Translations under genes and position numbers: made by a program
From: Eledone cirrhosa
Lineage: Eukaryota
Reading direction: 5' to 3'
DNA length: 64,000 nt
Assembly: GCA_964016885.1 (NCBI GenBank)
Contig: OZ024743.1
Span: 360,840,001-360,904,000, forward strand
The notes under the pieces: model-generated
The model's input: the letters and a program-made list of their open reading frames with translations, nothing else
Database searches by the model: none
Told to the model about the DNA's origin: nothing
Shown here: positions 40,338 through 49,076 of the stretch, piece by piece
Layout of the letters: every line of letters begins with the position of its first letter
How positions within the stretch are numbered: position 1 is the stretch's first letter

Positions 40338-40958
40338 ATAATGAAGGAAATGTGGTAAGGAACCAGGTGGACAATAACGCACCAAAGTACTCAATACTTA
40401 GGGTAGTAGAGTGGGTAATAGGAACAAGTAAGACCCCGACGGCTGAGCTCAAGCCGTTTCGACGGCTAATTCAGTCCAGAATTAGCCGTCAAAACGGCTT
40501 GAGCTCAGCCGTCGGGGTCTTACTTATTCCTATATATATATATATATATATATATAGAATTAATACATCTCCCAACATATGCGTACAGATGTACACTAAT
40601 ACTAGTAAATATATAAGTTATGTCAAAGTACCTAGGTGGTTCAATGCAGGGGGATGCAGAACAATTATATGAAAGACGTAAAATAAGAAAATTTTAAAAA
40701 TTAAAAATTAACTTACTTACTAAAATTTTAGTAAGTAAGTTAATTTTTAATTTTTAAAATGTTCTTATTTTACGTCTTTCATATATATATATATATATAT
40801 ATATATATATATATATGAGTCCAGAATTAGCCGTCGAAACGGCTTGAGCTCAGCTGTCGGGGTCTTACTGGTCCCTATTACCCACTCTACTACCTCAAGT
40901 ATTGAGTACTTTGGTGCGTTATGGTCCACCTGGTTCCTTACCACATTTCCTTCGTTAT
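40338..40958. mobile_element. Nested palindromes of families H and O
   Basis: Outer arms 40338-40472 and 40823-40958; inner palindrome 40416-40533; spacerless palindrome 40666-40785 with its tail at 40575-40665. Confidence 0.8.
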
Positions 40959-41825
40959 ATATATATATATATATATATATATATATATATATATATATAT
41001 ATATATATATATAAATATATATATATATATATATTATAATTAAAAGAGATTATTAAAATGATCTTATTCAGAGAACCAAATATATATAAACATATAGAGA
41101 ATATCTTATACAAAATCACTGAAGCTGAGATCACAGTAAAGTATCCATAAGAATAATATTAATACTTGTTGAGAGATGAGAATATTTCCCTTAACAGGTA
41201 TTATATTATTCTTATACGTTACATAATACCTCCGATTAAGAACTGCTCTGGCAATGATGGCTATATCAATCTATTGAAATGTTCAGATTTATTCTTCAAT
41301 TCACCAAATTATACTAAAATCATAGTCAGGGATTTCGGTCAGGATCCTTATATTTAGGTTGCTTGAATGTGAGCATATCCCTAGAGAATGATGTTTGTGA
41401 TGAATTCTTTTCAGTACTTTACTGTTTCAGTACTTTACTGTTTCAGTACTTCAGTGATTTTGTACAATATATCCCCCCCCTCTCTCTCTCTCTTCCTCTC
41501 TCTCTCTCTCTCTCTCTCGCTCTCTCTCTCTCTCTCTCTCTCTCTCTCTCTCTCTCTCTCTCTCTCTCTCATATATATATATATATATATATATATATAT
41601 ATATATATATATATATATATATATATATATATATATATATATATATATATATATACATTATCGGAGAAAGCTAATAGCGATATTCCGGCCAAATTCCAAC
41701 TCACTCAACAAACATTAGGAAATAAGTGAGTATATTCCTAATTAAACGTTCGAGATGCTAACTAATTTTATTGTGTGGAAAATTGACTGTATTATTTCAT
41801 ATGAGATATATCAAATATATCTCTT

Positions 41826-41948
41826 CCTAGACGTCTCGTTTCATTATAAGATTCCTACAAGTTAGGTGGAATTATACCAATTTATGTAGAAGCTTGTATA
41901 AGATCAACAGATACTTATTCAAGTGGGCTCTTATAATTCTTCAGTGGG
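41826..41948 (-). ncRNA. Hammerhead ribozyme with ~95-nt stem II
   Basis: CCCA CTGAAGA ATTATAAGA...TCTTATAAT GAAA CG-AGA-CG TC TAGG; GUC site. Confidence 0.78.
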
Positions 41949-42116
41949 TGCCCAATAATATTAATATTGATAATCAAATCAACATCAATACTAATATCAA
42001 CATAAATCACTAACTCCTATATATATATATATATATATATATATATATATATATATATATATATATATATATATATAATATATAAGATCAAAAGATGGTT
42101 AAAAGAGTTCCATGTA

Positions 42117-42183
42117 TTTTATTATCCGCATTTCAAAAACAAATATCATCATGCAATAACATTTGTGTTTTCATCAGATAAAA
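42117..42183 (-). ncRNA. Hammerhead ribozyme
   Basis: TTTTAT CTGATGA AAACACAAATGTTAT...ATGATATTTGTTTTT GAAA TGCGGA TA ATAAAA. Confidence 0.78.
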
Positions 42184-47112: not shown

Positions 47113-47441
47113 TGGATTGGCAGTATCGGTAGAGGATCAGACGCCATGCTTTCCAGCATAGTTACGTCCCTTTACGATCTGAGATCAAATCCCGCCGAGG
47201 TTGACTTTGCCTTTCATCCTTACGGGGTCGATAAAATAAAGTACCAGTAATGCACTGGGTAATTGCTGGCCTTGTGCCTAAAGTAGAAACAATTATTTGG
47301 ATAAGGAAACTCCCTGTATAATCTGAGTTCAAATCCCGCCGAGGTTAACTTTGCCTTTCATCCTTCCGAGGTGGATAGAATAAAGTACCAGTAATGTATT
47401 GGGTAATTGCTGGCCTTGTGCCAAAAGTAGAAACAATTATT
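47113..47441 (+). mobile_element. Two tandem Nin-like SINE copies (47113-47297, 47321-47441)
   Basis: Both carry the central domain and the gtagaaacaattatt tail, and each is followed by ttgga(t/c)aaggaaact. Confidence 0.88.
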
Positions 47442-47630
47442 TGGACAAGGAAACTACTCAGACACCCTGAAAAAATGCACTTTTTATTGATTTTAACTTT
47501 TCCCATATATACATACATACATACATACATACATACATACATATATATATATATATATATATATATATATATATATATATATATATATATATATATATAT
47601 ATATATATATATATATATATATATATATAC

Positions 47631-48614
47631 ATTAAAATATATGATAAACACGAAACGTGTTTACATTGCAACAGGCAAAGTTAGCTATTAATGAAATAAA
47701 CTAATTAAAGTGAATACAATTTGTCTGTCTCGATATAAGTCAATAAAAACAAGCTTATATTGGCAACGGCCATGATTTCTGGATAGATTTAAATTTCAAA
47801 ATTCAAACCTGTTCTGTAGACGAATTTGAACCTCGAAACCTAAATCCGTTTCGCAACGGTGGAATGTGAATTGAAAAATAAATAGAATCGAAATGGAATA
47901 GAAATAAAAAAGTGAAATATCCAAATCTTCTGTGCTTATCAACAGGAATCCAGTAAAATTAGTACATCTCACATCAAACATTTTGCAGGTCTGACTACAC
48001 GTGTGTAGCCAGGCCAAACTAGCCGTCCCACATTAACGGTGCTAGAAATAACAACCGCTTATGCAGGATTAAAGATCAGCTCTACAATAAAGGAGCCATA
48101 CACTATATTATATTTTGAGAATAAACTCTCAGTCGTTTACAATAATTTAGCTCCAGGAAAAGGGGCTCTCCCGAGCAGTTAAATACATTAAAATATATGA
48201 TAAACACGAAACGTGTTTACATTGCAACAGACAAAGTTAGCTATTAATGAAATAAACTAATTAAAGTGAATACAATTTGTCTGTCTCGATATAAGTCAAT
48301 AAAGACAAGCTTATATTGGCAACGGCCATGATTCCTGGACAGATTTAAATTTCAAAATTCAAACCTGTTCTGTAGACGAATTTGAACCTCGAAACCTAAA
48401 TCCGTTTCGCAACGGTGGAATGTGAATTGAAAAATAAAGAGAATCGAAATCGAATAGAAATAAAAAAGTGAAATATCCAAATCTTCTGTGCTTATCAACA
48501 GGAAAATATATATATATATATATATATTTTCCTGTTGATAAGCACAGAAGATTTGGATATTTCACTTTTTTATTTCTATTCGATTTCGATTCTCTTTATT
48601 TTTCAATTCACATT
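47631..48614. repeat. Direct repeat of about 315 bp (period about 556) ending in a perfect palindrome (48419-48614) centred on (TA)n
   Basis: 47631-47945 matches 48187-48503; 48419-48506 is mirrored at 48527-48614. Confidence 0.9.
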
Positions 48615-48705
48615 ATATATATATATATATATATATATATATATATATATATATATAGAGAGAGAGAGAGAGAGAGAGAGGGAGAGAGAGAGAGAGAGAG
48701 AGAGA

Positions 48706-49076
48706 GAGAAAATTGAGGTTGGTAATGGCACATGGAATATATAAGAGACAGAATACTTTTTTGTGAAAAAACATATAATTTTATAAGGTAAGGAAATAAT
48801 AAAGGGTATAAAAAATGACCGGTTTCGATGGGTCTGCAAAAGCCATCTTTTCAAATTTTGATTAATATTAAGAAAAATTAATAATACGAAGAGTTAAAAT
48901 TTGAGACTTGAAAATTCAAGTATAAAATTCATTGTGGGATTTCATAGTAGTTTTCATCTTGGTAGCAACAAGTTGACTGCTGTGTCCCTTTCTGGTAGTG
49001 AATGAGAAGTTATTTGGGGTGTGGGTTATTTTATAAAATAACCCACACCCCAAATAACTTCTCATTCACTACCAGA
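48706..49076 (-). mobile_element. pLTR-like unit (family T) with U3-A8 hammerhead at 48813-48858 and spacerless foldback at 48991-49076
   Basis: AAAT TTGAAAA GATGG-CTTTTGCAGAC-CCATC GAAA CCGG TC ATTT; palindrome centred on ttttataaaa. Confidence 0.82.

What the first reader, a model, noticed from the sequence alone, without database searches (positions are those of the whole stretch)
40666..49076. Spacerless foldbacks turn exactly at short quasi-palindromes of the template
Seen: the palindrome 40666-40785 is centred on taaaatttta, where the longer copy reads ctaaaatttcactcc (38240-38254). The palindrome 48991-49076 is centred on ttttataaaa, where the longer copy reads ttttataaaggtcag (about 60149-60163). 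Inference: the nascent cDNA 3' end snapped back on a self-complementary 6-8 nt site and primed second-strand synthesis. This would be a direct sequence footprint of how PLE 5' inversions form.
Basis: partly seen in the sequence, partly recalled or inferred. Interest (0 to 1): 0.7.

Follow-up and report, generated by a model that had tools for sequence, protein, structure and literature searches.

The report
Penelope palindromes turn beside ribozyme cut
These mirror-image repeats are back-to-back stubs of Penelope-type jumping genes, a known layout, and their turning points are rich in short matching sequences and cluster just past the predicted cut site of a self-cutting RNA, which suggests that two separate DNA copies were joined there rather than one copy folding back on itself.

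Summary
Both palindromes are real. They are head-to-head junctions of two Penelope-type families: A, a ~530-nt hammerhead retrozyme, and B, an RT plus GIY-YIG element. Spacerless turns follow each subfamily's own short palindrome. They are a minority, though: 2 of 64 inversions in A and 4 of 25 in B. Snap-back is disfavoured. In 26 of 61 A loci neither arm contains the other, in B either arm may be longer (9 versus 8), and the sites give 0-2 hairpin pairs but 4-8 pairs between two strands. Arm ends pile up in the 15 nt 3' of the predicted hammerhead cut in both families (A 13/64 and 11/64; B 7/48 and 6/25; 0.8-1.8 expected). Likely mechanism: both target ends prime a cDNA, both stop at the same RNA landmark, and end-joining anneals them at the nearest palindrome. 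Palindromic junctions and self-priming were published in 2013. This scan noted two-ended priming and stops near the ribozyme before, on other DNA of this genome.

The parts
40557..40665 (-). Family A single-copy 'tail' (about 110 nt), abutting (TA)n; 3' extension of the tailed arm
   Evidence: same layout in 61 of 64 inverted loci
40666..40729 (-). Family A tailed arm, paired part; ends 6 nt 3' of the predicted hammerhead cut
   Evidence: W40725: p=q=-6, microhomology 8
40722..40729 (.). 8-nt self-complementary microhomology AAAATTTT, the turn of palindrome 1
40722..40785 (+). Family A tail-less arm, starting at the family's second fixed site beside (TA)n
   Evidence: 2,618 such starts in the genome
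38082..38381 (-).
38249..38330 (-). Type I hammerhead of family A; predicted cut between 38255 and 38254 (GUU)
   Evidence: descriptor scan; stems covary across subfamilies; cleavage not assayed
38380..38547 (+). Family A second insertion, tail-less arm; asymmetric junction (19 nt) with 2-nt microhomology
   Evidence: W38372
48705..49037 (-). Family B tail-less arm (3' region of an RT + GIY-YIG Penelope-like element), beside (TA)n(GA)n
48811..48860 (-). Type I hammerhead of family B (U3-A8 core variant, GUC); predicted cut between 48817 and 48816
   Evidence: cleavage not assayed
49030..49037 (.). 8-nt self-complementary microhomology TTTATAAA, the turn of palindrome 2 (about 216 nt 5' of the hammerhead cut)
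   Evidence: same junction at one other locus, L242
49030..49076 (+). Family B second arm, cut short after 47 nt; no tail at this locus
49073..49322 (+). Fragment of an unrelated abundant repeat (LINE-like by recalled motif) joined to the B arm through CAGA
59824..60193 (-).
60843..61342 (+). Family B second insertion, tailed arm (unique part; hammerhead 61154-61204; tail about 61308-61342)

Best explanation
The palindromes are head-to-head junctions of Penelope-type insertions whose turns carry excess microhomology and cluster just 3' of a predicted hammerhead cut, and they likely form when two separately primed cDNAs stop at the same RNA landmark and are annealed at the nearest short palindrome. 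Steps: (1) The endonuclease cuts both strands in (TA)n (inferred; shown in vitro for a lizard element, PMC11167929). (2) Each DNA end primes reverse transcription at one of two fixed internal sites, giving a tailed and a tail-less arm (layout shown; priming inferred). (3) Both cDNAs often end at the 5' end of hammerhead-cleaved RNA (pile-up shown; cleavage predicted) or, in B, at another shared point on the RNA (symmetry shown; cause inferred). (4) The two same-sense single strands are trimmed by 0-15 nt and joined by microhomology-mediated end joining (microhomology and 1-10-nt insertions shown; pathway inferred). Two ends at the same template position can pair well only at a self-complementary site, which yields a spacerless palindrome with no hairpin needed.
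For: Microhomology: A mean 1.98 nt over 44 clean junctions of 64 versus 0.70-0.79 (0 of 200 simulations reach it; full-pipeline null 0.71 over 1,960 simulated junctions); B 2.47 over 17 of 25 versus 0.71. Two templates or two primings: neither arm contains the other in 26 of 61 tailed A loci, and L231 joins two subfamilies. In 21 tailed B inversions the tail-less arm is longer in 9, the tailed arm in 8, equal in 4. 35 of 99 A loci are tail-less arms with no inversion. Pile-up in the 15 nt 3' of the predicted cut: A 13 of 64 and 11 of 64 arm ends (1.8 expected; 15 nt 5' of it: 6 and 1); B 7 of 48 and 6 of 25 (1.7 and 0.8 expected; 5' side 0 and 0). One arm alone ends there in 11 of 110 ends versus 4.2 expected (p=0.003), which fits independent stops. 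L172 (A) and L259 (B) end both arms at the cut. Energetics favour pairing between strands. Hammerhead helix II is paired in 97-100% of 39 natural A units, with two positions changing on both sides.
Against: No cleavage or insertion was assayed. In A most ends lie 6-13 nt short of the cut, at the foot of helix I, so an RT stall at the folded ribozyme fits too. Non-inverted A copies do not pile up there (1 of 35). Tail-less A arms are also somewhat enriched 5' of the cut (6 of 64, p=0.009 against a uniform null). The uniform expectation ignores length decay; neighbouring windows (0-4 ends) are the better control. The hammerhead link in A was found after seeing the pile-up, and in B both were seen in the same output. 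The second palindrome is 216 nt from the cut and belongs to a symmetric class in B (14 of 18 within 44 nt, permutation mean 4.1) that the ribozyme does not explain. Later asymmetric deletion of a long palindrome could also give non-nested arms. 32 of 33 tested loci have both arms from one subfamily, which fits one template under either model.
Confidence: 0.6

Rival explanations
1. Two cDNAs are joined as above, but they stop because RT stalls at the 3' foot of the folded hammerhead (helix I), not because the RNA was cut.
For: A ends peak at -6/-7, just before helix I (48 of 96 ends in the hotspot set, inflated by the palindrome). In vitro, cleavage was not needed for insertion and no RNA-seq reads ended at the cut (PMC11167929).
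Against: In B helix I is only 2 bp in most copies, yet ends reach 0, -1 and -2 and none fall at +1 to +22. Several A junctions end within 2 nt of the cut on both arms (L172, L211, L230).
Confidence: 0.17
2. Snap-back (the first reader; self-priming in PMC3846280): one cDNA folds onto itself at a self-complementary site and copies itself back, and the endonuclease then trims the copy at the tail boundary.
For: Spacerless turns sit on template palindromes. 28 of 61 A loci are length-compatible with the tailed arm as template. Snap-back junctions are documented for R2-mediated insertion in human cells (PMC11371274 passages). 3 of 16 near-symmetric B junctions are spacerless with 6-nt overlap versus 0.7% expected.
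Against: Hairpin stems of 0-2 A-T pairs with positive free energy. Only 8 of the 28 compatible loci have loops of 11 nt or less. 26 of 61 loci are incompatible. There is no bias to the tailed arm being longer. A has no symmetric class away from the ribozyme (10 of 55 versus 9.2 expected). The one site with a stable hairpin (12-mer, -0.5 kcal/mol) is used rarely.
Confidence: 0.13
3. The junctions were reshaped after insertion: long inverted repeats lost their centres by deletion between the two copies of a short palindrome (which act as direct repeats), or perfect palindromes were revised asymmetrically.
For: A palindromic site in both arms is a direct repeat, so such a deletion gives exactly these sequences (follows from the sequence). 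It would also leave microhomology.
Against: No age trend: asymmetry versus arm divergence rho -0.08 (B, 24 loci) and 0.21 (A, 51 loci, p=0.13), and B loci with identical arms are already asymmetric by up to 287 nt. The longest palindrome in the A unit's neighbourhood is not the hotspot. It gives no reason for one arm alone to end at the ribozyme.
Confidence: 0.1
4. Assembly or amplification foldback artefact, or miniature DNA transposons with terminal inverted repeats.
For: Perfect palindromes in TA repeats resemble both.
Against: The arms have different fixed ends (one-sided tail), carry substitutions, stop at element boundaries, and in B run into an RT + GIY-YIG frame.
Confidence: 0.02

Closest known systems
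Endonuclease-bearing Penelope-like element insertions with an inverted 5'-truncated copy and one-sided tail (PMC8557442, passages; PMC3846280, passages)
   Same: Head-to-head arms, one-sided tail, microsatellite targets. PMC3846280 already reports palindromes at the inverted junction and reads them as self-priming.
   Different: Here the junctions are counted against a null, and the data favour two joined cDNAs over self-priming. The tail of A is about 110 nt rather than 30-40 (B: about 35).
Poseidon element of the green anole in vitro (PMC11167929; parts 1-2 of 4 read: abstract, main text, start of methods)
   Same: Both target strands cut and extended; two internal RT start sites that bound the tail; hammerhead cut 85-92 nt upstream of the start region (here about 63 and 175 nt in A, 110 and 143 in B).
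   Different: That study saw no need for cleavage and no reads ending at the cut. The genomic arm ends here pile up beside it. The parts read do not treat the inverted junction.
Animal non-LTR retrozymes (PMC7229834, passages; bioRxiv 10.64898/2026.07.22.740005, parts 1-3 of 5 read, supplements closed)
   Same: Family A: non-coding tandem unit of 519-541 nt with one type I hammerhead per unit.
   Different: The parts read do not describe inverted, tailed insertions or junctions. Circular RNA was not shown here.
L1 twin priming (recalled; seen only as a reference in PMC11371274) and R2 snap-back junctions (PMC11371274, passages)
   Same: Inverted 5' segment joined by microhomology.
   Different: In L1 (recalled) the second primer anneals at a variable internal site and the two segments do not overlap. 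Here both primers use fixed sites near the 3' end, so the arms overlap and form palindromes.

Membership tests
EN+ Penelope-like element (family B) | RT followed by C-terminal GIY-YIG endonuclease, contiguous with the repeat | tested here: met
   RVT_1 E 1e-7 to 3e-4 in 6 of the 13 frames tested from family B loci; GIY-YIG above Pfam's cut-off in 2; one 777-aa open frame holds both
EN+ Penelope-like element (family B) | Inverted 5'-truncated copy, head-to-head, with a one-sided 30-40-nt tail | tested here: met
   frame orientation shows 5'-5' junctions
EN+ Penelope-like element (family B) | Type I hammerhead in the terminal repeat | tested here: met
   U3-A8 core, G10.1-C11.1, palindromic loop 3, GUC; layout in 71 of 90 loci; features as in PMC4209133 passages; little sequence variation, so no covariation support; cleavage untested
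Neptune or Nematis clade (family B) | CX2-5CxxC finger before GIY-YIG, plus placement in an RT tree | tested here: inconclusive
   motif present (criterion from PMC8557442); no tree built, clade not assigned
Animal non-LTR retrozyme (family A) | Non-coding tandem unit under 1 kb with a type I hammerhead in each unit | tested here: met
   52 distinct natural units of 519-541 nt; full hammerhead layout in 39 of 52, helix II 97-100% paired with compensatory changes; Rfam gave no hammerhead hit at E<=0.1
Animal non-LTR retrozyme (family A) | Self-cleavage and circular RNA in vivo | not testable with these tools
   no RNA holder listed
Animal non-LTR retrozyme (family A) | Mobilised by a specific Penelope partner | tested here: inconclusive
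   same insertion layout as B; partner element not searched for
MITE / TIR DNA transposon | Two equivalent termini | tested here: not met
   ends differ by a tail in 61 of 64 A and 21 of 25 B inversions; the inner junction varies from locus to locus
EN+ Penelope-like element | Target-site duplication | not testable with these tools
   flanks are (TA)n, no empty sites available

The most novel reading that the evidence does not exclude
Penelope-type elements integrate by default through double priming with no dedicated second-strand step. Hammerhead-cleaved RNA is a real template in the germline, both cDNAs run off its 5' end, and host microhomology joining makes the palindromic junction. Genomic junction spectra would then map RNA 5' ends and give in vivo evidence of what the Penelope hammerhead does.
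Probability: 0.4. Interest if true: 0.72.

Novelty: new member of a known kind. Interest (0 to 1): 0.5.

Why it matters
How Penelope-like elements form their inverted ends is named as an open task in PMC8557442, and the role of their hammerhead is unsettled (PMC11167929). This genome holds thousands of insertions (2,618 and 742 exact end matches), so the self-priming hypothesis of 2013 can be tested with counts. The counts favour two joined cDNAs and point to the ribozyme as a landmark for 5' truncation in two unrelated families. That gives sharp predictions for the existing in vitro system. The elements themselves are ordinary members of known kinds.

Tried and rejected
A MITE or Polinton reading of family B was rejected once the one-sided tail and the RT + GIY-YIG frame appeared. 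Rfam found no hammerhead, only chance hairpin hits below gathering score; a custom descriptor found 6 sites versus 0 in 10 shuffles of the masked window. My first hammerhead reading (core and GAAA one base apart) had no stems and was dropped. The first junction caller over-called insertions near indels and was replaced. In the hotspot table several short-arm calls were still wrong, so the spacerless tally was redone on raw centres. The hotspot null had an off-by-one error, fixed. One search used a pattern that fits only some subfamilies; one search covers others. No RNA holder was listed. Laying short contigs on 48715-49300 could not bridge the junction; no read check exists for palindrome 1. 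Dropped rows: L179 (duplicate of L178), L224 and L225 (duplicates of L223). 65 of 90 B loci were not scored as simple inversions (40 run into the inner microsatellite, 25 join other sequence or longer arms). Literature searches listed no paper that, from its title, abstract start or the passages read, counts junction microhomology or arm ends at the hammerhead for these elements. Subscription papers and preprint supplements were not visible.

Full report
Observation. The window comes from a 3.0-Gb animal assembly and is full of inverted repeats in (TA)n. Both named palindromes exist as described: 40666-40785 (60-bp arms, 1 mismatch) and 48991-49076 (43-bp arms, perfect), centred on AAAATTTT (40722-40729) and TTTATAAA (49030-49037).

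Family A. Palindrome 1 belongs to a tandem unit of 519-541 nt in seven subfamilies. Insertions have two arms reading outward, one with a ~110-nt extra tail and one starting at a second fixed site; 2,618 exact matches to that tail-less start exist. The sense strand carries a type I hammerhead: CUGAYGA core, helix II paired in 97-100% of 39 natural units (of 52) with changes on both sides at two positions, and a palindromic loop 3. These features match those listed for Penelope hammerheads (PMC4209133 passages). It is an animal non-LTR retrozyme by layout.

Family B. Palindrome 2 belongs to the 3' region of an autonomous Penelope-like element. Long copies run into an RT and GIY-YIG frame, the tail is about 35 nt, and a U3-A8 hammerhead with a GUC site lies 143 nt from the tail end. 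At this locus the second arm is cut after 47 nt by a fragment of another repeat, joined through CAGA. The same turn with an intact tailed arm occurs at L242, and 2 of 4 near-symmetric junctions around this site are exact.

I took the first 100 of 2,618 A starts and 90 of the first 100 of 742 B starts, in order along contig 1. This selects copies with an intact tail-less end. In A, 64 of 99 loci are inverted. 44 junctions are clean, with mean microhomology 1.98 nt (34% have 3 nt or more) against 0.70-0.79 (6%) in simulations, and 20 have 1-10 inserted bases against about 12-14% expected from divergence. In B, 25 simple inversions give 2.47 nt over 17 clean junctions against 0.71. Excess complementarity is therefore real. 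Near palindrome 1, 17 of 48 junctions are perfect palindromes whose centre moves with the subfamily (AAATTT, AAAATTTT or ATAT), against 2-9% expected. Their tails are 85-98% identical to the nearest other, span four reference subfamilies, and some carry an extra unit on either arm, so they are repeated events and not one amplified hairpin. Spacerless turns remain a minority overall (2 of 64; 4 of 25).

Snap-back or two cDNAs. Snap-back needs one arm to be nested in the other. In 26 of 61 tailed A loci neither is; 28 are compatible with the tailed arm as template, but only 8 of those have a loop of 11 nt or less; 7 fit the reverse. In B the arm ends are correlated (rho 0.76; 21 of 25 within 44 nt, permutation mean 5.9), but the longer arm is the tail-less one in 9, the tailed one in 8 and neither in 4. 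L231 joins arms of two subfamilies directly (1 of 33). As hairpins the sites give 0-2 pairs and positive energy; between two strands they give 4-8 pairs. The tail-less site also occurs without any inversion (35 of 99), and both strands are extended from two start sites in vitro (PMC11167929). Later central deletion could mimic non-nested arms, but asymmetry does not rise with arm divergence; this test is weak.

Why the turn is there. Arm ends pile up in the 15 nt on the 3' side of the predicted hammerhead cut: A 13 of 64 and 11 of 64, B 7 of 48 and 6 of 25 with none in the next 15 nt upstream. Genome-wide, 143 near-symmetric A junctions fall in the window 3' of the cut and 18 in the window 5' of it, although the latter holds a 12-nt palindrome (6 of the 18 sit exactly on it; the patterns differ in subfamily coverage, so the ratio is rough). 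Palindrome 1 is centred 8-9 nt from the cut. Against this: non-inverted A copies show no pile-up (1 of 35), most A ends stop 6-13 nt short of the cut, where a stall at helix I would also put them, and the link was found after the fact. Palindrome 2 lies 216 nt upstream of B's cut. It belongs to a symmetric class (14 of 18 away from the ribozyme) that A lacks (10 of 55, 9.2 expected). One inference is that B's linear RNA has varied 5' ends shared by both cDNAs while A's template is circular or multimeric; this is untested, and snap-back is not excluded for this class.

Mechanism (confidence 0.6). Shown: the layout, microhomology, non-nested arms, sign symmetry and the pile-up. Predicted: ribozyme cleavage. 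Inferred: double priming, run-off, trimming and host end joining.

Known versus new. The inverted copy with a tail is standard (PMC8557442 passages). Palindromes at the junction and a self-priming reading were published (PMC3846280 passages), and snap-back is documented for R2 (PMC11371274 passages). Retrozymes as Penelope passengers are described (PMC7229834 passages; bioRxiv 2026). My searches listed no paper with these junction counts, within the limits given under Tried and rejected. Earlier notes of this scan on other DNA of this genome reached two-ended priming many times and disagree on whether stops at the ribozyme are real. My reading was written before those look-ups (notes); they are not independent support.

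Verdict. Observation confirmed, interpretation partly supported. New members of known kinds that give a useful test of an open mechanism. Interest 0.5.

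Noticed in passing
window 48660-48710; L064-L065, L139, L178; subfamily references: Flanking repeats mirror the template at the start site: templates reading TATAGAGA are flanked by (TA)n(GA)n, those reading TATAAAGA mostly by (TA)n only. This may be reiterative, telomerase-like copying at initiation; all three start sites whose upstream template was seen (two in A, tail-less in B) lie at a TATA/ATAT-like stretch.
   Followed up: partly
window 48419-48614; L029 1790-1925; L188: Some palindromes have a (TA)n run at the turn itself: either microsatellite growth from an AT centre or bases added by RT. 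47630-48614 is a further tandem family with a 556-nt period.
   Followed up: no
L231: Inverted arms from two different family A subfamilies joined directly with a 2-nt insertion; the tail-less arm ends at the hammerhead hotspot.
   Followed up: partly
family B, reference positions 374-398 (window equivalent 60170-60195): A second loose cluster of arm ends beside a 14-nt GC-rich palindrome; possibly a transcription start or pause; not tested.
   Followed up: no
window 13342, 24770, 29968: Further type I hammerhead candidates from the descriptor scan, next to other inverted repeats and weak RT or GIY-YIG fragments (8508-8957, 9893-10186, 29929-30807, 55476-56090).
   Followed up: no
window 2018-2451, 2478-2771, 13552-13868, 29431-29687, 39209-39268, 40343-40953, 57288-57557: More inverted repeats of other families; the family A insertion at 40557-40785 sits inside one of them (40343-40953).
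   Followed up: no
window 49073-49480 and 51212-52160: Fragments of an abundant repeat with a LINE-like frame end (R4/Dong-like by recalled motif; no Pfam hit). The 49073 fragment lacks the family's usual 3' continuation and ends in a short duplicated piece that resembles family B sequence.
   Followed up: partly
L110 and L117: Two separate family B loci with the same spacerless junction on ATTAAT and different flanks; counted as two events, but a duplication was not excluded.
   Followed up: partly
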